Source: Shigella phage Tf
Sequence record: OR980947
DNA length: 64,000 bases
Reading direction: 5' to 3' (one strand)
Shown here: in pieces, positions 4,385-52,244 of the stretch
Numbering within the stretch: the first letter of the stretch is position 1
How the letters are laid out: each line of letters opens with the position of its first letter
Notes under the pieces: generated by a model
What the model was told of the DNA's origin: nothing
The model's database searches: none
The model's input: the letters and a program-made list of their open reading frames with translations, nothing else
Program-made: the position numbers and the translations under genes

Positions 4385-5062
4385 TTAAATCAGTGTTTCC
4401 AGAACTGTTTTTAGGGATGACTTGGTTGTCTGATAAAAATGAGTAAATCCATTATTGTTATCAAATACCTGCATCATGATATCATCTCCCTTGATTGGGT
4501 AAACTCGGATATCATAGTGAAAACCATTAAAGACACAAGAACCACTACAGAATGCTCTAAAGTCACTTGCTGAGATATACTCTTCATGACCTGTGATTTT
4601 TATACAAACACCTTTACTCGGCCTCTTAGGGTTGATATCTTCCATCACAGACATACTTTGTCCACCAAGAGATACCATAGTGACCACTTTACGATTCTGC
4701 TGTTTAACATACATCTCAAGTTTCTTCAAAGTATCTTCATAGAACGGATAAGACTTCTTGACAAAGATACCATCAAGTGGTTCTTTACAATCTTCCATAC
4801 GTTCATTATAAAGCTTGCTAGTAATACTATTAAGAGAGAGCTTCTCATCATCTGTCAAATATGTGTTGATATCATCCAGACTAAGTACCAGATACTTTCT
4901 TTCAAGTTCAAACTTTTTCATATCTATTAAGTCCTGAAAACATTTCTTAGTAATTGCTTCCCATTCTTCGGAGTTCTTCTTCTTCCTCCTCTTCAGATGG
5001 GGAACCATATCTTTCAAGTTCATCCAATTCATCCTGCGAAGGTGTCCCGTAAGATTCTTCAT
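4385..5062 (-). CDS. hypothetical protein (start uncertain)
   Basis: ORF-track ORF; terminator-like hairpin just downstream on minus strand. Confidence 0.4.
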   Translation of the reverse strand: MKNLTGHLRRMNWMNLKDMVPHLKRRKKKNSEEWEAITKKCFQDLIDMKKFELERKYLVLSLDDINTYLTDDEKLSLNSITSKLYNERMEDCKEPLDGIFVKKSYPFYEDTLKKLEMYVKQQNRKVVTMVSLGGQSMSVMEDINPKRPSKGVCIKITGHEEYISASDFRAFCSGSCVFNGFHYDIRVYPIKGDDIMMQVFDNNNGFTHFYQTTKSSLKTVLETLI

Positions 5063-5227
5063 CGTACAATTTCATAGTGTGGTATAGAGTAAGTTTTATT
5101 TCCAGATGACATGGCTAAATCTTCTTTAGTAGAGTTATCCAGTATTGCTTTACGAACAATTTCTTTAAGTTTCATTTTCACTACCTTGTTTGGTTAAGAG
5201 GGGCTATCAAGTAACCCCTTCAAGATT

Positions 5228-5455
5228 TTACTCAGAATCCTCAGATTTCTTTTCAGTCTTCTTCGTTTTCTTTTCAGCTTTCTTCTCAACTTCTGGTTTT
5301 GATTCTACAGTAGCTTCAATAGCAATGTCCAGAAGTTTTGAAAGGTCAGCTTTAAGAACCGTTACAGGTTGTTCATTGTAGTAGTTCTTGTCAAGGTGCT
5401 CTTTCAGTTCGTTCAGAGAGCTAAAGCCGAATGGCTGGATAGGTGTCTTAATCAT
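5228..5455 (-). CDS. hypothetical protein with lysine-rich C-terminus (75 aa)
   Basis: ORF-track ORF. Confidence 0.4.
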   Translation of the reverse strand: MIKTPIQPFGFSSLNELKEHLDKNYYNEQPVTVLKADLSKLLDIAIEATVESKPEVEKKAEKKTKKTEKKSEDSE

Positions 5456-15697: not shown

Positions 15698-15855
15698 CCT
15701 AATAAGATTTAAAGCCAAGCTTCATTCGGATGTTGCTTTGGTATACCGCGTGTATTGTTGTACACATTGATAAAACACCTAGTAGGTGTCACGGAGAAGA
15801 GATAATATCAAGCTCTCCAAAGGTTCTAGTCACCGGATTAAACAAGACTATGCAA

Positions 15856-15876
15856 AGACCTAAATAGGTCTTTTTA
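15856..15876 (+). terminator. terminator-like hairpin inside tRNA cluster
   Basis: agacctaaataggtct + ttttt. Confidence 0.45.
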
Positions 15877-15954
15877 GAGGGCTTCTAAGGTTATTACAGC
15901 TTGTTGTGGAACCTTGTTGCTTAGGTTCTTAGAAGTTCTCTAAAAAGATTTAAT

Positions 15955-16029
15955 GGGAGATTGATGGTAATTGGTAAACCTATCTCGCTTAGAACGAGAT
16001 GTTTGAGGGTTCGAATCCCTTGTCTCCTA
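15955..16029 (+). tRNA. tRNA with Leu-type anticodon TAG but short variable region
   Basis: acceptor gggagat/gtctcct, anticodon stem tctcg/cgaga loop ctTAGaa, T-loop GGTTCGAATCC, A73, CCA encoded; only 5 nt between anticodon and T arms. Confidence 0.5.
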
Positions 16030-16039
16030 CCAAATTAAT

Positions 16040-16112
16040 GCAGGTGTAGCAAAATGGTTATGCGGCTGACTCTTAATCAGTAAGACGATGGGTTCAATTC
16101 CCTCCACCTGTA
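16040..16112 (+). tRNA. tRNA-Lys (anticodon CTT)
   Basis: paralogue of the TTT tRNA at 14806; anticodon stem ctga/tcag loop ctCTTaa; T-loop GGTTCAATTCC; CCA encoded. Confidence 0.6.
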
Positions 16113-16121
16113 CCAGACATT

Positions 16122-16194
16122 GGGGATGTAGTTTACATGGTTAAAACATAAGTTTTGCAAACTTAAGTACAGGGTTCAATTCCCTGCTTCTCCA
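16122..16194 (+). tRNA. tRNA-Ala (anticodon TGC)
   Basis: D-stem gttt/aaac, anticodon stem taagt/actta loop ttTGCaa, T-stem cagg/cctg, CCA encoded. Confidence 0.7.
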
Positions 16195-16203
16195 CCAATT
16201 AGT

Positions 16204-16275
16204 GCATCCATAGTTTAAACGGGAAAATTACAGTCTTCCAAACTGAGGTTGAGGGTTCGATTCCCTCTGGATGCT
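16204..16275 (+). tRNA. tRNA-Gly (anticodon TCC)
   Basis: perfect acceptor gcatcca/tggatgc, anticodon loop ctTCCaa, T-loop GGTTCGATTCC, CCA encoded. Confidence 0.75.
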
Positions 16276-16284
16276 CCAAACAAT

Positions 16285-16358
16285 GCTGCTTTCGTATAAT
16301 TGGCTATTACACATCCCTTGTAAGGATGGAAATGCAGGTTCGAGTCCTGTGAGCAGCA
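16285..16358 (+). tRNA. tRNA-Thr (anticodon TGT)
   Basis: acceptor gctgctt/gagcagc, anticodon stem catcc/ggatg loop ctTGTaa, T-loop GGTTCGAGTCC, CCA encoded. Confidence 0.75.
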
Positions 16359-16456
16359 CCAATTCAGAGGTCAAGTGAAAGACCGCTGGTGTCAACTGAA
16401 GACCGTAACAAATTCCACGGAGTTGAGTTAGCGGCACAACTTCAGACCTCTTTCAC

Positions 16457-16528
16457 ACTCGCTTAGTTTATATGGTAAAACATCACCCTTACAAGATGAA
16501 GAAAAAGGTTCAAGTCCTTTAGTGAGTA
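16457..16528 (+). tRNA. tRNA-Val (anticodon TAC)
   Basis: acceptor actcgct/agtgagt, anticodon loop ctTACaa, T-loop GGTTCAAGTCC, CCA encoded. Confidence 0.7.
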
Positions 16529-16532
16529 CCAT

Positions 16533-16607
16533 GTTCCAGTATCCCAATTGGCAGAGGATGCAAGCTCAAACCTTGTATTAGTGACGGTTCGAATCCGTCT
16601 TGGAACA
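16533..16607 (+). tRNA. tRNA with Leu-type anticodon CAA but short variable region
   Basis: acceptor gttccag/ttggaac, Leu-like D-loop aattggcaga, anticodon stem gcaag/cttgt loop ctCAAac, T-loop GGTTCGAATCC, A73, CCA encoded. Confidence 0.55.
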
Positions 16608-16629
16608 CCAATTTTAAGAGGCTATTTAG

Positions 16630-17187
16630 ATGAGATACTTAAAGTATGCTTCATGGATTTTCTTAGCTTTGTTAGAGCCATTCGCAGCAATCTTAGCAGT
16701 TATCTTAGCACCTTTTGTAGTTCCATTCTATAGTGAGAAGAAAGGACATCTACCTTTCGGATTCAGATGGATGGAGACATATGACAACCCAATTGATGGT
16801 GATGAAGGTCACGTTAAAAGATGGGCTAAGATTAGAAAGATTGGTAATCTTGGTGTCTATTTGCAGAGAGTTGGATGGCTCTGGAGAAACAAAGCTTATA
16901 ACTTCTCTTACCATGTGTTAGGAAGAGACGTAAAAGATGTTACTAAGTGGAAAGGTAATATCAACGTGAGTTCTGACCCTGAAGATAATCAGACAGGTTA
17001 TCTCCTAATGTGGAACAGTAATGCTTGGGGATTATTCGCTTTTGTCCCATCAATTAAAATCTTTGGTAAACAATTCTACTGGAGAATTTATGTTGGATGG
17101 AAACTAAAAAGTGTTGTCCCAGAAGAAAGAGCATTCTCAAGGGAAAGAGTTATGTTGGCATTCTTTATTCATCCACTGAGAAAGTAA
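16630..17187 (+). CDS. hypothetical membrane protein encoded inside the tRNA cluster
   Basis: ORF 185 aa; N-terminal hydrophobic segment (IFLALLEPFAAILAVILAPFVVPF); Trp/Tyr-rich. Confidence 0.45.
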   Translation: MRYLKYASWIFLALLEPFAAILAVILAPFVVPFYSEKKGHLPFGFRWMETYDNPIDGDEGHVKRWAKIRKIGNLGVYLQRVGWLWRNKAYNFSYHVLGRDVKDVTKWKGNINVSSDPEDNQTGYLLMWNSNAWGLFAFVPSIKIFGKQFYWRIYVGWKLKSVVPEERAFSRERVMLAFFIHPLRK

Positions 17188-17195
17188 AGATTTAA

Positions 17196-17268
17196 AGGGG
17201 ATTAGTTTACAAGGTTAAAACCTCGGTCTTTGAAATCGAAGAAGTTGGTTCAATTCCAACATCCCCCG
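17196..17268 (+). tRNA. tRNA-Gln (anticodon TTG)
   Basis: anticodon stem tcggt/atcga loop ctTTGaa, T-stem gttgg/ccaac, CCA encoded. Confidence 0.7.
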
Positions 17269-17273
17269 CCAAT

Positions 17274-17349
17274 GCTCCATTACTCCAATTGGCAGAGAGG
17301 CCAGACTTAAAATCTGTGTTATGTATCGGTTCGAATCCGATATGGAGTA
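17274..17349 (+). tRNA. tRNA with Leu-type anticodon TAA but short variable region
   Basis: paralogue of 16533-16607 (shared aattggcaga D-loop); anticodon stem caga/tctg loop ctTAAaa; T-loop GGTTCGAATCC; A73; CCA encoded. Confidence 0.5.
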
Positions 17350-17357
17350 CCAAATTT

Positions 17358-17430
17358 AGCGGTATAGCATAACTGGCAATGCAGCAGTCTCTGAAGCTGT
17401 CTTATTAAGGTTCAAATCCTTATGCCGCTG
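17358..17430 (+). tRNA. tRNA-Gln (anticodon CTG)
   Basis: D-stem gcat/atgc, anticodon stem gcagt/gctgt loop ctCTGaa, T-loop GGTTCAAATCC, CCA encoded. Confidence 0.7.
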
Positions 17431-17434
17431 CCAC

Positions 17435-17464
17435 TTCTAAGGGTTCTTACGAGAGTCTTTAAAT
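17435..17464 (+). promoter_or_regulatory. conserved motif cttctaagGGTTCTTACGAGagTCTTTAAAtg (copy 3)
   Basis: just upstream of tRNA-His. Confidence 0.35.
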
Positions 17465-17537
17465 GTGGCCTTATCATAAATGGTAATGACCCATGCTGTG
17501 AACATGGTCTATACGGGTTCAAATCCCGTAGGTCACC
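17465..17537 (+). tRNA. tRNA-His (anticodon GTG)
   Basis: D-stem tcat/atga, anticodon stem ccatg/catgg loop ctGTGaa, T-loop GGTTCAAATCC, C73, CCA encoded. Confidence 0.75.
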
Positions 17538-17545
17538 CCAATTTA

Positions 17546-17620
17546 TAGTCCAAGTAGCTTATATGGTTAAAGCGCGTGTCTGAAAAACATGAGAAGAGGG
17601 TTCAAATCCCACTGGACTAC
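17546..17620 (+). tRNA. tRNA-Phe (anticodon GAA)
   Basis: perfect acceptor tagtcca/tggacta, anticodon stem cgtgt/acatg loop ctGAAaa, T-loop GGTTCAAATCC; D region slightly irregular. Confidence 0.6.
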
Positions 17621-17638
17621 CAATTTCAAAGGTGCTTA

Positions 17639-18373
17639 ATGAAAGAGATGACAGGACAAGGTAAGGAGATTTTTAATCTCTTAAAAACCGGTAAAGGGTT
17701 CTCTAACCCGCTTATTACTGGTGCAGCAGTTCTCGGTGGAACCGTAGCTGCTTCTACATCACTTGTAAGCTCTATTAGTTCTGTAACAGACCCTACAATG
17801 AAGGAGAAACTTGTTGCTGCTGGACTTACAACAGCCCTTCTAAACAGCTTTACAACAAGCCTGACAAGTACTACAGCAACTACTAAGACCCTAACAGACT
17901 ATGGTCAAAAGTCTATTGATGAGTTTTCATCACGTATGCAGGTAGCAAAGGGATACTCCAATGTTATGGGTGCAGCAGGAGAACAAGTTGGTTGTACACC
18001 ATTCAGTGGTATCATGGGTGTTGCTACAGAGTATGGTCAAAAAGCTATTGACATGATGAACAGTGCACTAGATAGTGTTAACGATGTATTAAGTGACTTA
18101 CAAGACGCTATTGACAAGGGTCTTGATACTGTTTCTGATTTAGCTAACCAAGCTGTCAGTAAGATTAATGAAGGTATCTCGAAGATTACAGCTTATGCAG
18201 ATGAAGTTGTGCAGATGATTGAAGAAGAAGCTGCCCTTATTGCAGAGTACCTTAAAACGAATATCAATGGGTTCTTAGCAGGTATCTTACCAGACTGGTT
18301 TGATGATGCTTGTAAAACTGGTGTAATTGACACTATTGCAACACCAGAAATGAAGAACGCATTACAGAAATAA
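17639..18373 (+). CDS. hypothetical protein, Ser/Thr/Ala-rich (start trimmed to avoid tRNA-Phe)
   Basis: ORF-track ORF 17576-18373 overlaps tRNA-Phe; in-frame ATG at 17639 preceded by aaaggtg. Confidence 0.5.
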   Translation: MKEMTGQGKEIFNLLKTGKGFSNPLITGAAVLGGTVAASTSLVSSISSVTDPTMKEKLVAAGLTTALLNSFTTSLTSTTATTKTLTDYGQKSIDEFSSRMQVAKGYSNVMGAAGEQVGCTPFSGIMGVATEYGQKAIDMMNSALDSVNDVLSDLQDAIDKGLDTVSDLANQAVSKINEGISKITAYADEVVQMIEEEAALIAEYLKTNINGFLAGILPDWFDDACKTGVIDTIATPEMKNALQK

Positions 18374-18375
18374 AT

Positions 18376-18465
18376 GGAAGATTAACCCTAAAAGGTAAGG
18401 GAGCAGTTTGCTAAACTGCCAGTAGCTGAGAAATCGGTGTACCAGTTCAAGTCTGGTATCTTCCT
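18376..18465 (+). tRNA. tRNA-Ser (anticodon GCT), long variable arm
   Basis: 90 nt; acceptor ggaagat/atcttcc, anticodon stem gcagt/actgc loop ttGCTaa, long variable arm, T-arm accag-TTCAAGT-ctggt, CCA encoded. Confidence 0.7.
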
Positions 18466-18472
18466 CCAATTT

Positions 18473-18545
18473 GAATCCGTGACAGAAACGGCTATGTGCC
18501 TGTCTGCAAAACAGGTTTATAAGGGTTCGAGTCCCTTCGGATTCT
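18473..18545 (+). tRNA. tRNA-Cys (anticodon GCA)
   Basis: acceptor gaatccg/cggattc, anticodon stem cctgt/acagg loop ctGCAaa, T-arm aaggg-TTCGAGT-ccctt, CCA encoded. Confidence 0.7.
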
Positions 18546-48677: not shown

Positions 48678-49229
48678 TCAAATTAGTTTTGCAAACTCTC
48701 CGTGGAGTTTAATAGCAGCTTCACAGTAAGCTTTATGGGCTTCTTCAGGCGTGTCAAACATACCAAGATGATAGTTTTTACCTTGTAAACGTATCATTGC
48801 TCGAAACCTTTTATTTATCTTCTGTACACCTTTTGGCAACCCAGATAGGGACTTTCTTGACCGATTGCAAGAGTTTTGTGAAGCTGTACAAACCCTTAAA
48901 TTCAAGTACCTATTGTCCCAACCATCCCCATTCTTATGGTCAACCTGTAAGGTTTTATCAGGCAGATATCCATCAATATACAAGATAACTAAACGATTTG
49001 CTTGGTAACTCCTTCCATCAATCAGCAACTGAACTGACTTGTGTCCATCAGTATTTGTTCTGTAGTTTCCAGCCCTCTTACCTCCAAATCTAGAGTTAAA
49101 ATTTGCATTACCTTCTCTAAACTTCCAAGTAAAGACCCCTGTTTCGGGGTCGTAGTCCAATAGCTCCTTAAGACGAATTTCTGTAATCATTTCAACACCA
49201 TCAATGTACCTCATACCAGCTCTTACCAA
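48678..49229 (-). CDS. HNH homing endonuclease with AP2 DNA-binding domain (free-standing)
   Basis: HNH core QVDHKNGDGWDNRYLNLRVCTASQNSCN and AP2-like LPKGVQKINKRFRAMIRLQGKNYHLGMFDTPEEAHKAY; overlaps 3' end of DNA polymerase exon 2. Confidence 0.8.
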   Translation of the reverse strand: MVRAGMRYIDGVEMITEIRLKELLDYDPETGVFTWKFREGNANFNSRFGGKRAGNYRTNTDGHKSVQLLIDGRSYQANRLVILYIDGYLPDKTLQVDHKNGDGWDNRYLNLRVCTASQNSCNRSRKSLSGLPKGVQKINKRFRAMIRLQGKNYHLGMFDTPEEAHKAYCEAAIKLHGEFAKLI

Positions 49230-49757
49230 CCTTACCTGTGCCAGTTACAAGCGTCTCACTCTTCAAACCTAAATTCTTAGATGCCTGACCATACATCCAG
49301 TCAGTTATGGCTTTAACTTCTTGAGTCATACTTTCTGGGCATTCCCAACTGTTCTCATCGTGGTATGCCAGCAAAAGTCTAGCACCAATTGCTGGTTTCC
49401 GTCCATTTAATTTTGTCAACCCTTCTTCACATGCTCTTCTACAAGCAAGGTTAATTGCCTCGTTCTGAATCTGACTTTCCGAACCCATGAGCAAATAATT
49501 CAACAACTTATGTGGAGATTTACACCACAACCAAGCTCCAGCAACCTTTACAAAACCCCCTTTAGAGATTGCAGCAGTCTTACCAAACACCTCTTCAAGA
49601 GCCTTTTTAGTTGCTTTGTAGTCAGCTTCCAAGTCATCTAGCAGCTTCTTAATCTTTGGCAAACGCACAAAGTAAGTCTGTTTAGTTAATGCACCTTCCT
49701 GAGTAGTGGCTGCCTTAATAGTTTTAGCAAACTTTTCATCACCTGCACCGAACAATA
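49201..49757 (-). CDS. DNA polymerase (family A), exon 2: C-terminal part from motif B second half through motif C
   Basis: starts ..LFGAGDEK (T7 pol LYGAGDEK), contains motif C LLAYHDE and ends ...WYEVH like T7 DNA polymerase. Confidence 0.8.
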
Positions 49758-50068
49758 CATCTGGTCAATACACTCGCAAGGTGTACCAGTTCTCTTATGA
49801 ACTTCTCCGCATTTCTACGGAGTGTCGGACTATATCACGTAGTAGTAATACTACCGTTGCACTTGGGAATGGTCATTAGCTTACCACCCTACTCTACTCA
49901 GTTCATACATTAAGTATGCTTTTCGATAGTCTCTGAACGTTTCTCTGTTAGGAATCTCTATAGTTATGTTATTTGCTTTAGGAGTCCTAACAGAGACTTC
50001 GCTGCTGATTACCATATCTTTACAGACTTAGGCTTCCAGCAATTCACAACGTTTTACATGCGCCACTG
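49758..50068 (-). ncRNA. group I self-splicing intron interrupting the DNA polymerase gene
   Basis: on the minus strand: exon 1 ends in U pairing with G of internal guide gcgcat (P1), terminal G before exon 2, and P/Q/R/S-like core elements aattgctggaagcc, aatcagcagc, gttcagagacta, gatatagtcc in canonical order; no long ORF inside. Confidence 0.75.
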
Positions 50069-52244
50069 ACGCATAGATACCATTCTTAGCCTTCTTGCGG
50101 CCTTTACTAATCTCATGAAGAAGATTCTCATCCTGAGTAGCTCGACAAGTCAAGATGTCCTGCTCATCATTCAAGCTAAAGTAAATACTGTTCAGTGTAT
50201 GTGCATCAGTCCCTGAATAGACAACGTACAGGTCATTCTCAGAGTCATAGCGCAGGTACTTATCAATCTCTGGGTTGAGGTACTCATCAAAATGTTTACA
50301 GTAATAACGTCCATCTTCTTGACGAATAAACTCAATCTCTTCTTTACCTTGCGTTACCGCTTTGGTGAACTCTTTATCACCCATAAAGTTACAAAGTAGA
50401 ACTAACTGGGCTGAGTTCATATCAACAGAGACTACGTTGGTTCCCTCTTCACAAATCCACACCTCCCTCATAGGTGCTCCATAGACAGCAGCACCAGACG
50501 GTACGTTTACAATACCATATTGTGTCATTCGTCCAGTTGAAGTACCAAACACCATTGCACCAGCACTAAGGCGACCATCAGGACGAATCTGGTTCAACCA
50601 ACCTTTTTCACCATCCTTTGAGTTCTCAATAGTTCTGCGTCGGTGCATCAAAGTATAGTACTTAGCAATCTTCTGTCCAAGCTCACCTTCAATCGTATCA
50701 TAAGAAGACTCAGTAAGTTTTGGTGAAGTACGGATTAAGCAAGGTTCAAGCAAATCTGTGTACTTCTTCACAGACCAGTTATGCTCAATGTACTGTACAC
50801 CTTCATGTTCAACATAGCTCAAACCACACCGCTCAACCATTTCCTGCCACTTAGGATGTTTTGTAATCATCTTTTTATTGTCTTTGAAACGACAAACTTT
50901 GACAGGGCGACCGTCTGAGTCTTTCTTGTAGTTCCAGTCATCTGGAATCCAACCAACTGATTTCAAGTAGTCTTTAACAACTGCTACCTGAGTCATACGA
51001 GAAACTTCAAAATCAATTGGTGTATATGGTGCATCAATCAAACCTGTGTAGCGACTTGACTCAAGTTCAAAGTGGTTAACAACGTGACTGTTATAGTACT
51101 TCACAGTTTTAACTGTTTTTACTGGCTTCCAGTCTTTGCATTTCTTACCAATCTTTGCATTCAACTCATTGCAAATTGCACGAGCATCCTTCATTGCTAC
51201 AAAGCCTTCCTTGTACTCTTCACCAGTTACAGAGTTGGTTGGTGTATAGCAATTTCTCTTTTCAATGTTAAAAATCTTTGTAGTTGGCTTACCAAATGGC
51301 TTGATTTCATATGTCTGCATCTCACCGTTACGTACCTGCTGACGATACTTTGTCTTAGGGTACTTGGTAATTCTTTTCAGTCCATCTGCATGACCAAATG
51401 TTTCAACATACTCATTCCAAGCTTTTGCAAACTCTTCTCCAGTGACTTTACCTTTGGTCTTAATAGTTGGAGGAAGATGTGGTTCAACTTCTGAAGCAAG
51501 CTCATTAGTCAACTTGTCAAGTTCCTTTACATGGAACTCCATAAGTTCTTTATCAGCTTTCCAACCATTGATAGCCTGTTGACTCATCCAGAAAGATGTT
51601 TCTTTAGCTCGCATGTAGGTTTCATAAGTGTCTATGCCACACTTCTTAAGCTTGAGATACTCATTATCAAGTGCCCGTTTAGTTTTGGCGTTAATACGGA
51701 TATCTTCTACAACACGAGTGAAGATTTCTGCATTCCACACACCCCAATGCTCAATCTCTGGTTTACGAACACCAACACGAGCACCCCATGCAGCCAAACC
51801 ATGAGCACCTTTATAACCCTTTGGAGTTGGTCTATCCATCCACTGAACACGAGACTGGATAAGAGAGTCCTGAAAGAAATTACTCCACGGTTTACACTTT
51901 GGGTTATCAAAGTTCCATAAATCAGGTGCAATGTGATTGAAAACCCACCAGTCATAACCGAGACCGTTATGGATGCAAAGACGTTTTGCCTTTAACGCAA
52001 ATTCAACGCCTTCACGCAAACCACCTTTAATGTACTTGGTATACTTGTGACCGAGGATAGGCTCATCTGTAAAGACCCATACAGGCGGCTCTTCATCGTC
52101 AGATTTATAGTCTGCGAAAGCCATTACGTGCACTTTAGTGAACTCAAGGAGTAAACCATCAGTTTCTGTATCACCAACCAAATGTAAGTTTTTAAAATCT
52201 ACGTTTTCCATTTCTACTCCCTCTAAATCATTAACCTCATACAT
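50069..52244 (-). CDS. DNA polymerase (family A), exon 1: 3'-5' exonuclease and polymerase domains up to first half of motif B
   Basis: Exo I motif VGDTETDGL; motif A-like VSVDMNSAQL; ORF-track ORF ends RKKAKNGIYAS... with stop 12 codons into the intron. Confidence 0.85.

What the first reader, a model, noticed from the sequence alone, without database searches (positions are those of the whole stretch)
49201..52244. Group I intron splits the family A DNA polymerase inside motif B
Two adjacent minus-strand ORFs together make one T7-like DNA polymerase. Exon 1 ends ...RKKAKNGIYA and exon 2 begins LFGAGDEK...LLAYHDE...WYEVH, so the break falls in the middle of motif B (T7: RDNAKTFIYGFLYGAGDEK). 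The 311-nt intervening sequence (49758-50068) has stops in all frames and, read on the minus strand, carries the hallmarks of a group I intron: exon 1 ends in U, which can pair with the G of a guide sequence gcgcat six nt into the intron (P1, atgcgu/gcgcat); the intron ends in G before exon 2; and P, Q, R and S-like core elements (aattgctggaagcc, aatcagcagc, gttcagagacta, gatatagtcc) occur in canonical order. Splicing would yield ...IYA-L-LFGAGDEK.
Basis: partly seen in the sequence, partly recalled or inferred. Interest (0 to 1): 0.8.

Follow-up and report, generated by a model that had tools for sequence, protein, structure and literature searches.

The report
Known group I intron in phage polymerase

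Summary
Confirmed. The window comes from a Felixounavirus, about 97% identical to Salmonella phages Mushroom and GEC_vB_NS7. Its family A DNA polymerase gene (minus strand, 49201-52244) is interrupted by a 311-nt group I intron at 50068-49758.

- **RNA family:** Rfam RF00028 scores 62.9 bits against a threshold of 50, E = 1.4e-13.
- **Boundaries:** Intronless relatives are exactly 311 nt shorter at this point. The spliced 910-aa product aligns without gaps to them and reads ...IYA-L-LFGAG.
- **Structure:** All core helices are present (P1, P3-P9, P7.1/P7.2, no P2). They pair in 100% of cells across ten natural variants, with two compensatory changes.
- **Position:** The split codon corresponds to T7 F528, in motif B (the O-helix).

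About 96 of 224-260 sequenced relatives carry the intron, in three forms: a 268-nt minimal form, a 780-811-nt form with an Endo VII-type homing endonuclease gene in P6a, and this 311-nt form. The window's form is a deletion derivative that still keeps the endonuclease gene's last two codons and stop.

It is already known. Phage Meda's record joins the exons and its paper mentions the intron. Fang et al. 2018 call the JH2, EC6 and SP-010 endonucleases intron-encoded. LUZ24 (splicing validated) and Yersinia phage Berlin have polymerase introns 6 and 10 nt away. Splicing was not tested here.

The parts
50069..52244 (-). DNA polymerase exon 1 (exonuclease domain, thumb, motif A and the first half of motif B, ending ...RKKAKNGIYA plus the first base of a Leu codon). 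The start is ATG 52244, or the better-placed ATG 52211 that follows GAGGGAG.
   Evidence: ORF. PHROG 17 profile positions 655-1072. 98% identical, with no gaps, to the uninterrupted polymerase of phage dune. Mushroom's annotation uses the second ATG.
49758..50068 (-). Group I intron, 311 nt (intron nt i = 50069 - window coordinate). It has no endonuclease ORF. The exon 1 frame runs 13 codons into it and stops at UAA (nt 39-41).
   Evidence: RF00028 at 62.9 bits, E = 1.4e-13. Exactly 311 nt are absent from intronless relatives. The 88-pair structure is 100% paired across 10 variants.
50057..50075 (-). P1: exon nt -7..-1 (UAUGCGU, 50075-50069) pair with the internal guide sequence at intron nt 6-12 (GCGCAUG, 50063-50057). 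U50069 forms the splice-site wobble with G6. Intron nt 1-5 (CAGUG) could form a 5-bp P10 with the exon 2 start UAUUG.
   Evidence: Covariance-model alignment and pair list. All intron-bearing alleles read GCGT|TATTG, whereas intronless alleles read GCACT(A/G)(C/T)TG and could not form the U.G pair. P10 is an inference.
49937..50041 (-). P4-P5-P5a-P6-P6a domain (intron nt 28-132), containing the P and Q elements and a GUAA tetraloop on P5a.
   Evidence: The P5a loop varies GUAA/GAGA/UAAA among relatives. The first P6a pair shows the compensatory change U-A <-> C-G.
49954..49984 (-). P6a terminal loop, the scar of a deleted homing-endonuclease gene. It keeps the sequence upstream of the HEG ribosome-binding site (GACTCCTAAA) fused to the HEG's last two codons and stop (AGC AAA TAA) plus its 3' flank.
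   Evidence: Alignment with VpaE1, Si3, EC6 and SP-107, which carry a 160-161-aa ORF here. A 469-nt deletion lies between the imperfect direct repeats GACTCCTAAAACAAA and GACTACCTAAGCAAA. The ORF matches Pfam Endonuclease_7, E = 5.9e-20.
49927..49933 (-). P7 5' strand (R element, GAGACUA with a bulged A137). It pairs with 49832-49827 (S element, UAGUCC) and is the presumed guanosine-binding helix.
   Evidence: Near-perfect match to the R and S consensus. Six pairs are invariant across the variants. The G-binding function is inferred from general knowledge of group I introns.
49865..49918 (-). P7.1 and P7.2 hairpins (intron nt 151-204), inserted between the P7 5' strand and the P3 3' strand. 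This extension is a subgroup IA trait.
   Evidence: An 83-nt insertion relative to the Rfam consensus at this point. Both hairpins are recovered by energy-only folding. Pairs are maintained, with one A-U to G.U change.
49763..49861 (-). P3 3' strand (49861-49855, pairing with 50051-50045), P8 (49854-49839), J8/7, P7 3' strand, P9 (49822-49805), P9.1 and P9.2 (49803-49763).
   Evidence: The last P8 pair shows the compensatory change U-A <-> C-G, and the last P3 pair changes G.U to G-C in Si3.
49758..49758 (-). Terminal (omega) G of the intron, at the 3' splice site.
   Evidence: Read directly from the sequence. It is the only boundary that gives both a U-ending exon 1 and a G-ending intron and also reproduces the amino acids of intronless alleles.
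49201..49757 (-). DNA polymerase exon 2 (TA of the split Leu codon, then LFGAGDEK..., motif C LLAYHDE, C-terminus ...WYEVH, stop TGA 49203-49201).
   Evidence: ORF. PHROG 17 positions 1073-1232. Pfam DNA_pol_A positions 218-381. Motif C aligns to Taq LLQVHDE.

Best explanation
The polymerase gene of this Felixounavirus is one gene interrupted by a subgroup IA-type group I intron. The whole region is transcribed as one pre-mRNA. The intron RNA folds into the standard ribozyme and an external guanosine attacks after U50069. The freed exon 1 end then attacks after G49758. This joins GCG-U to UA-UUG and yields a 910-aa family A polymerase with an intact motif B (O-helix).

This copy has lost its homing endonuclease gene by a 469-nt deletion in the P6a loop. 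It can therefore no longer promote its own spread. It persists because it splices, and it can move only by ordinary recombination or with an endonuclease supplied by a co-infecting relative.

Shown here: the RNA-family match, the boundaries, reading-frame restoration, conservation of pairing, and the deletion scar. Inferred: the catalytic activity itself and the mode of mobility.
For: - **RNA family:** RF00028 at 62.9 bits (gathering 50), E = 1.4e-13, full-length model match. The sister 268-nt form scores 64.2 bits.
- **Boundaries:** The intronless phage dune is exactly 311 nt shorter, and five intronless relatives encode IYALLFGAG continuously.
- **Product:** The spliced CDS is 2733 nt and gives 910 aa, 98% identical with 0 gaps to dune's polymerase. 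That is the size of the uninterrupted UAB_Phi87 polymerase, which is 99% identical to wV8's (PMC4837284). Pfam DNA_pol_A gives 57.3 bits for the spliced product but falls below the cut-off for each half. PHROG 17 profile positions abut at 1072/1073.
- **Structure:** 88 proposed pairs are 100% canonical in 845 cells over 10 variants, against 28-47% when partners are slid. There are two compensatory pairs (P6a, P8), and four one-sided changes all keep pairing.
- **Conservation:** The intron is 97-100% identical between phages whose flanking exons are 76-96% identical.
- **Exon context:** Bases needed for P1 (G-2, U-1) occur only in intron-bearing alleles.
- **Deletion scar:** The HEG-deletion scar is visible in the alignments.
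- **Outside support:** Meda's GenBank CDS is joined across the same intron, and its paper states that an intron without an HNH endonuclease lies in a DNA polymerase gene (PMC6486253). Fang et al. 2018 list the JH2, EC6 and FSL SP-010 Endo VII-motif proteins as intron-encoded (PMC6083498).
Against: - No RNA or protein data were examined, so splicing in vivo or in vitro is untested for any Felixounavirus intron as far as the searched literature shows.
- Sequence diversity among the ten variants is low (a handful of substitutions). The structure was drawn from the window sequence, so the covariation support is modest and the 100% pairing figure is partly circular.
- The P1 loop is only 5 nt and there is no P2, which is unusual though not disqualifying.
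- Most GenBank records annotate two separate polymerase proteins.
Confidence: 0.93

Rival explanations
1. A genuinely split polymerase: the two ORFs are translated separately and assemble into a two-subunit enzyme, and the intervening sequence is an inert or decayed relic. This is how most database records annotate it.
For: GenBank records for Mushroom, VpaE1, JLBYU28 and many others list two polymerase CDSs, or a 'DNA polymerase subunit'. A TTG codon opens the exon 2 ORF at 49755.
Against: - The break falls inside one helix (the O-helix of motif B), between the counterparts of T7 Y526 and Y530.
- Read directly from the sequence, no Shine-Dalgarno sequence precedes the TTG.
- The TTG is simply Leu727 of the continuous protein in intronless relatives.
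- The intervening RNA is more conserved than the coding exons and keeps every ribozyme helix, which an inert spacer would not.
- About 60% of close relatives have an uninterrupted gene.
Confidence: 0.03
2. The intron is an active mobile element in this genome, mobilised in trans by the free-standing HNH-AP2 endonuclease gene immediately downstream (48678-49229). This would be 'collaborative homing', as described for the cyanophage S-PM2 psbA intron with F-CphI.
For: An ORF-less intron sits ~560 nt from a free-standing homing-endonuclease-type gene (HNH_3 E = 2.6e-11, AP2 E = 9.6e-6). About ten records hold a near-full-length match to the HNH-plus-311-nt-intron query. The collaborative-homing concept is reviewed in PMC3984707.
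Against: In a 60-record sample, all four combinations occur: intron+HNH 13, intron only 5, HNH only 17, neither 15 (my count). Near-identical HNH genes (96%) sit beside intronless polymerase genes (GE_vB_7A, LMP33). Those genomes would cut themselves if the intron insertion site were the target. The intron family also has its own, different endonuclease (Endo VII type) in sister copies.
Confidence: 0.07
3. The ribozyme is present but crippled by loss of the endonuclease gene or by mutation, so the polymerase gene is a pseudogene in this phage.
For: The P6a loop carries a deletion scar. One related record (GEC_vB_BS, MW006475) even lacks exon 2.
Against: The deletion is confined to a terminal loop and leaves the 12-bp P6a stem intact. 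The natural minimal 268-nt form shows that this region is dispensable. Identical or near-identical 311-nt introns occur in about ten independently isolated, plaque-forming phages. The polymerase is the only replicative polymerase seen in the region.
Confidence: 0.02

Closest known systems
The same intron in other Felixounavirus genomes (Salmonella phage Meda MH586731, JLBYU28, Mushroom, and EC6/JH2/FSL SP-010/VpaE1 with an Endo VII-type endonuclease gene)
   Same: Same insertion site (GCGT|TATTG) and 97-100% identical ribozyme. Meda's CDS is joined and its paper mentions the intron. Fang et al. 2018 list the JH2, EC6 and SP-010 endonucleases as intron-encoded.
   Different: The window has the 311-nt endonuclease-deleted form, seen in about ten records. 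Meda and JLBYU28 have a 268-nt form with a minimal P6a hairpin, and EC6 and JH2 have 780-811 nt with an intact or frameshifted ORF. No publication found in the library describes the ribozyme structure, its type, or the deletion scar.
Pseudomonas phage LUZ24 DNA polymerase group I intron (669 nt; Ceyssens et al. 2008; splicing confirmed by RT-PCR and ONT-cappable-seq, PMC10914365)
   Same: A group I intron in a family A polymerase, inside motif B (...AKTFI-Y|AFIYGAG), flanked by U and G. It carries an Endo VII-type endonuclease 52% identical to the one in the Felixounavirus sister introns.
   Different: The insertion point is 6 nt upstream (in the codon matching T7 Y526, against F528 here). The ribozyme sequences do not align. 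It comes from a different phage family (Bruynoghevirus podovirus), and it still has its endonuclease gene.
Yersinia phage Berlin (T7-like) polymerase intron with an endonuclease VII gene
   Same: Interrupts motif B of a T7-type polymerase (...RDNAKTF | IYGFLYGAG). The CDS is annotated as joined, and the endonuclease is of the same Endo VII-motif clade according to PMC6083498.
   Different: The site is about 10 nt upstream of the window's. Its boundaries were read only from the ORFs and not checked with a covariance model. The ribozyme gave no blastn match to the window's intron.
T7-like PhiI/W31/K1F polymerase introns (Bonocora & Shub 2004; subgroup IA2, HNH gene in P6a, self-splicing shown; details from my own knowledge, as the paper is not in the library)
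   Same: A group I intron in a T7-type family A polymerase of an enterobacterial phage, with the endonuclease ORF located in P6a.
   Different: In K1F the site is in motif C (...AYMAWVH | DE...), not motif B. The endonuclease is a different HNH type. K1F's ORF-bearing intron is not detected by Rfam at the gathering threshold.
Bacillus phage SPO1/SP82/Bastille and Staphylococcus phage K/Twort polymerase introns; T4 td, nrdB and nrdD introns
   Same: Self-splicing phage group I introns of subgroup IA in conserved nucleotide-metabolism or replication genes, with optional homing endonuclease ORFs (PMC3984707; PMC3185647).
   Different: Different hosts, genes or sites. No sequence similarity beyond the universal core. 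The Staphylococcus phage 6ec endolysin intron and the Erwinia MIF8 RNAP2-like gene intron share only ~80% identity over 65-70 nt of the 5' part (roughly P3-P5).

Membership tests
Group I catalytic intron (Rfam RF00028) | Covariance-model score at or above the curated gathering threshold | tested here: met
   62.9 bits against 50, E = 1.4e-13, model positions 1-253 of 253, not truncated.
Group I catalytic intron (Rfam RF00028) | Conserved core helices P3-P9 with P, Q, R and S elements in order, including the P3/P7 pseudoknot | tested here: met
   All helices can be drawn with canonical pairs. Pairing is 100% over 10 variants, against 28-47% for slid controls, with 2 compensatory pairs. Diversity is low, so the covariation support is modest.
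Group I catalytic intron (Rfam RF00028) | 5' splice site after a U that forms a U.G wobble in P1 with the internal guide sequence; the intron ends in G | tested here: met
   U50069 pairs with G6 within a 7-bp P1, and the terminal G is at 49758. Intronless alleles have C at the -1 position.
Group I catalytic intron (Rfam RF00028) | Removal restores an open reading frame colinear with uninterrupted homologues | tested here: met
   910-aa product, 0 gaps and 98% identity to dune's polymerase. Profile positions are contiguous.
Group I catalytic intron (Rfam RF00028) | Guanosine-dependent self-splicing, in vitro or in vivo | not testable with these tools
   No RNA data were available. No paper in the searched library reports splicing for a Felixounavirus.
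Subgroup IA (IA2-like) group I introns | P7.1/P7.2 extension between the P7 5' strand and the P3 3' strand | tested here: met
   An 83-nt insertion at that position forms two hairpins. Formal subgroup assignment (GISSD-type comparison) was not done. P2 is absent.
Mobile (homing) group I intron | Intron-encoded homing endonuclease gene | tested here: not met
   There is no ORF with a family match in the window's intron, only a 3' remnant of the gene. Sister introns do carry an Endonuclease_7 ORF.
Mobile (homing) group I intron | Patchy distribution among close relatives, with the intron more conserved than its flanks | tested here: met
   About 96 of 224 records with the junction region carry it. 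The intron is 97-100% identical while the exons are 76-96% identical.
Family A (Pol I/T7-type) DNA polymerase | Pfam DNA_pol_A above threshold, with motifs A, B (RxxxKxxxYxxxF/YG) and C (HDE) | tested here: met
   The spliced product scores 57.3 bits against 34.3. It matches Taq and T7 polymerase chains (E about 3e-5 to 1e-4), with HMMER's T7 gp5 match starting at G715 against gp5 residue 517, and LLAYHDE aligned to Taq's LLQVHDE. The motif B residue numbering is from my own knowledge of T7 gp5.

The most novel reading that the evidence does not exclude
Felixounaviruses preserve every stage of a homing-endonuclease life cycle at one site: empty site, minimal intron, intron with endonuclease gene, frameshifted gene, and the deletion scar seen in this window. 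In addition, homologous Endo VII-type endonuclease genes sit in unrelated ribozymes within a 10-nt stretch of polymerase motif B in three phage families (Felixounavirus, LUZ24, Berlin). This implies that the endonuclease gene, and not the ribozyme, is the unit that hops and that it repeatedly targets the O-helix coding sequence.
Probability: 0.45. Interest if true: 0.4.

Novelty: already known. Interest (0 to 1): 0.2.

Why it matters
The practical value is for annotation. Most of the roughly 100 intron-bearing Felixounavirus records (phages used for Salmonella and E. coli biocontrol) list two polymerase fragments, a 'polymerase subunit', or a spurious 44-aa protein in place of one spliced gene. 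The precise boundaries given here (exon 1 ...GCGT | intron | TATTG... exon 2) allow these to be corrected. Biologically it adds one more documented example to a well-known class, phage group I introns in polymerase genes. It also offers a tidy natural series of endonuclease gain and loss that could serve as a model for homing dynamics. It does not open a new question.

Tried and rejected
- **Same site as the classic T7-like (K1F/PhiI) intron?** No. K1F's intron is in motif C.
- **Do the partial blastn matches mark the same gene?** No. The Staphylococcus phage 6ec hit lies in a split endolysin and the Erwinia MIF8 hit after an RNAP2-like gene, so only the ribozyme core is shared.
- **Collaborative homing with the downstream HNH-AP2 gene?** Not supported. 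All four presence/absence combinations occur, and the HNH gene coexists with intronless sites.
- **A second group I intron in the window?** None at E <= 0.05. The SPJ41 paper reports two introns genome-wide.
- **Is the 44-aa ORF inside the intron a real gene?** It has no Pfam or PHROG match and spans the ribozyme core.
- **Promoter and terminator scan:** counts equal the shuffled expectation and nothing lies inside the intron.
- **Alignment of the LUZ24 ribozyme to this one:** no meaningful similarity.
- **Papers not held:** the Bonocora & Shub 2004 and 2009 papers were not in the library, so statements about PhiI/W31 rest on my own knowledge.
- **Rfam at the gathering threshold** misses the ORF-containing forms in VpaE1 and K1F.
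Full report
**What is there**

The window is from a Felixounavirus (Felix O1-like myovirus). The 3044-nt region is 97% identical to Salmonella phages GEC_vB_NS7 and Mushroom, and 260 phage records match it. On the minus strand, ORF 50028..52244 (738 aa) and ORF 49201..49755 (184 aa) are separated by sequence with stops in all frames.

The two ORFs are consecutive pieces of one family A polymerase:
- PHROG 17 matches them at profile positions 655-1072 and 1073-1232.
- Pfam DNA_pol_A scores 17.8 and 27.9 bits for the pieces, below the 34.3 cut-off, but 57.3 bits for the joined protein.

**Is it a group I intron?**

An Rfam scan of the whole window gives one RF00028 hit, at 50080..49805 on the minus strand: 62.9 bits (gathering 50), E = 1.4e-13, spanning the whole model. 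No other intron hit appears even at E <= 0.05.

I drew the full structure (intron nt i = 50069 - coordinate):
- P1: exon UAUGCGU with GCGCAUG at nt 6-12, with U50069.G6 at the splice site.
- No P2.
- P3 (nt 18-24 with 208-214), P4, P5, and P5a capped by a GUAA tetraloop.
- P6 and a 12-bp P6a.
- P7 (nt 136-142 with 237-242, with a bulged A).
- P7.1 and P7.2, then P8, P9, P9.1 and P9.2, ending in the terminal G at 49758.
- Intron nt 1-5 could also pair with the first five exon 2 bases to form P10. This is an inference.

The P7.1/P7.2 extension marks it as subgroup IA-like. Energy-only folding recovers most of these helices, with z = -3.4.

**Boundaries**

Intronless relatives settle them. Phage dune matches the flanks of a 551-nt query over exactly 240 nt, which is 311 nt fewer. 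Dune, GE_vB_7A, wV8, Citrobacter phage HP1 and Erwinia phage Ep030 read ...TATGC-ACT(A/G)(C/T)TG-TTCGG..., encoding IYALLFGAG in the first four (Erwinia Ep030 differs slightly before the junction). Five intron-bearing phages tabulated, and all twelve checked, read ...TATGCGT | intron | TATTGTTCGG....

Joining after U50069 and after G49758 gives a 2733-nt CDS and a 910-aa protein. That protein aligns to dune's uninterrupted polymerase at 98% identity with no gaps. It is the same length as the uninterrupted UAB_Phi87 enzyme (PMC4837284). No other pair of boundaries satisfies both the U/G rule and the amino-acid match.

The exon differences at -2, -1 and +3 are synonymous. G-2 and U-1 are exactly what P1 needs, so intron-bearing alleles carry a matching exon context.

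**Position in the enzyme**

HMMER starts its T7 gp5 match with G715 of the spliced protein against gp5 residue 517. Counting on ungapped, R716, K720, Y724 and F728 correspond to R518, K522, Y526 and Y530, and the split codon L726 corresponds to F528. The residue roles are from my own knowledge of T7 gp5.

**Comparative support**

About 96 records carry the intron, out of 224 with the junction region. I aligned ten distinct variants, removing endonuclease ORFs where present, and scored the 88-pair structure:
- 845 of 845 cells are canonical pairs, against 28-47% when the partners are slid.
- Two pairs change on both sides: P6a U-A/C-G in 5 against 5 sequences, and P8 U-A/C-G in 4 against 6.
- Four one-sided changes all preserve pairing.

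Caveats: diversity is low and the structure was drawn from one of these sequences. The intron is 97-100% identical between phages whose exons are only 76-96% identical. This fits selection on the RNA, recent lateral spread, or both.

**Three forms and a scar**

The intron exists in three forms:
- A 267-268-nt form with a 4-5-bp P6a hairpin (Meda, JLBYU28, REP6, fKMPT1, SUT_S820).
- A 780-811-nt form with a 160-161-aa ORF in the P6a loop (EC6, SP-107, Si3; frameshifted in VpaE1).
- The window's 311-nt form.

The ORF belongs to Pfam Endonuclease_7, E = 5.9e-20. The window's P6a loop reads GACTCCTAAA-GCAAATAACATAAC.... This is the sequence upstream of the endonuclease gene's ribosome-binding site, fused to the gene's last two codons and stop (AGC AAA TAA) and its 3' flank. 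It corresponds to a 469-nt deletion between the imperfect direct repeats GACTCCTAAAACAAA and GACTACCTAAGCAAA. The window therefore holds an endonuclease-deleted derivative, seen in about ten records.

**The neighbour**

ORF 48678..49229 overlaps the polymerase stop codon and is a free-standing HNH_3 + AP2 endonuclease. In a 60-record spread sample I counted intron+HNH 13, intron only 5, HNH only 17 and neither 15. Near-identical HNH genes lie beside intronless polymerase genes. The two elements therefore appear independent, and collaborative homing is unlikely.

**What is already known**

- The Felix O1 genome paper reported no introns, and Felix O1, wV8 and UAB_Phi87 are indeed intronless (PMC3185647).
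- Fang et al. [quoted passage not shown]
- An Rfam-type scan of phage SPJ41 reported two introns (PMC9951933).

I checked the two outside cases:
- **LUZ24:** its experimentally validated 669-nt intron (PMC10914365) splits ...AKTFI-Y|AFIYGAG, 6 nt upstream of the window's site. Its endonuclease is 52% identical to the Felixounavirus one, but the ribozymes do not align.
- **Berlin:** its intron splits ...AKTF|IYGFLYGAG, about 10 nt upstream.
- **K1F, for contrast:** its intron is in motif C.

A group I intron inside motif B of a family A polymerase is thus a recurring, documented situation.

**Verdict**

Both the observation and the interpretation are correct in every particular I could test. 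Catalysis itself remains inferred. The finding is not new. This analysis adds exact boundaries, a full secondary structure, the endonuclease-deletion scar, and the clustering of three introns within 10 nt of motif B. Its main use is to correct the split-gene annotations in most related records.

Noticed in passing
window 48678-49229 (-): A free-standing HNH_3 + AP2 homing-endonuclease-type gene overlaps the polymerase stop codon. Across relatives it occurs with and without the polymerase intron, in several diverged alleles.
   Followed up: partly
window 49134-49151 (-): A terminator-like GC-rich hairpin (GACCCCGAAACAGGGGTC followed by a T-rich tail) lies ~50 nt after the polymerase stop, inside the 5' part of the HNH gene. 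It could limit expression of the endonuclease.
   Followed up: no
window 49881-50015 (-): A 44-aa ORF lies entirely inside the ribozyme (from the P5 3' strand through P6, P7 and P7.1 into the start of P7.2). Several GenBank relatives annotate it as a hypothetical protein. It has no Pfam or PHROG match and is most likely spurious.
   Followed up: yes
window 13703-18545 (+): A cluster of 22-23 tRNA genes, typical of Felix O1-like phages. Two further weak tRNA-like hits fall below threshold.
   Followed up: no
L019 (MW006475, Salmonella phage GEC_vB_BS) 1500-2100: This record has the 311-nt intron but lacks almost all of exon 2 and the HNH gene, going straight into downstream small ORFs. It is either a deletion that would remove motif C or an assembly error. 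An earlier record of the same-named phage (MG969407) has the endonuclease-bearing intron and a complete gene.
   Followed up: partly
L002 (VpaE1) 4786-5246; L017 (FSL SP-107) P8 region: There are signs of decay and drift in sister introns. VpaE1's endonuclease gene is frameshifted into two ORFs, and SP-107 has a 6-nt ACT-repeat expansion in P8.
   Followed up: partly
L020 (LUZ24) 2144-2812; L021 (Berlin) ~1700-2300: Three polymerase introns (Berlin, LUZ24, Felixounavirus) insert within ~10 nt of each other in the motif B codons. The LUZ24 and Felixounavirus endonucleases are 52% identical, and Berlin's is placed in the same Endo VII-motif clade by Fang et al. 2018. The LUZ24 and Felixounavirus ribozymes do not align, and blastn found no match to Berlin.
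   Followed up: partly
L011 (Staphylococcus phage 6ec) 3400-4330; L012 (Erwinia phage MIF8) 3466-3747: Roughly 80% identical 65-70-nt matches to the 5' part of the intron (roughly P3-P5) fall in a fragmented endolysin gene (6ec) and just after an RNAP2-like gene (MIF8). These are probably unannotated group I introns in those phages.
   Followed up: no
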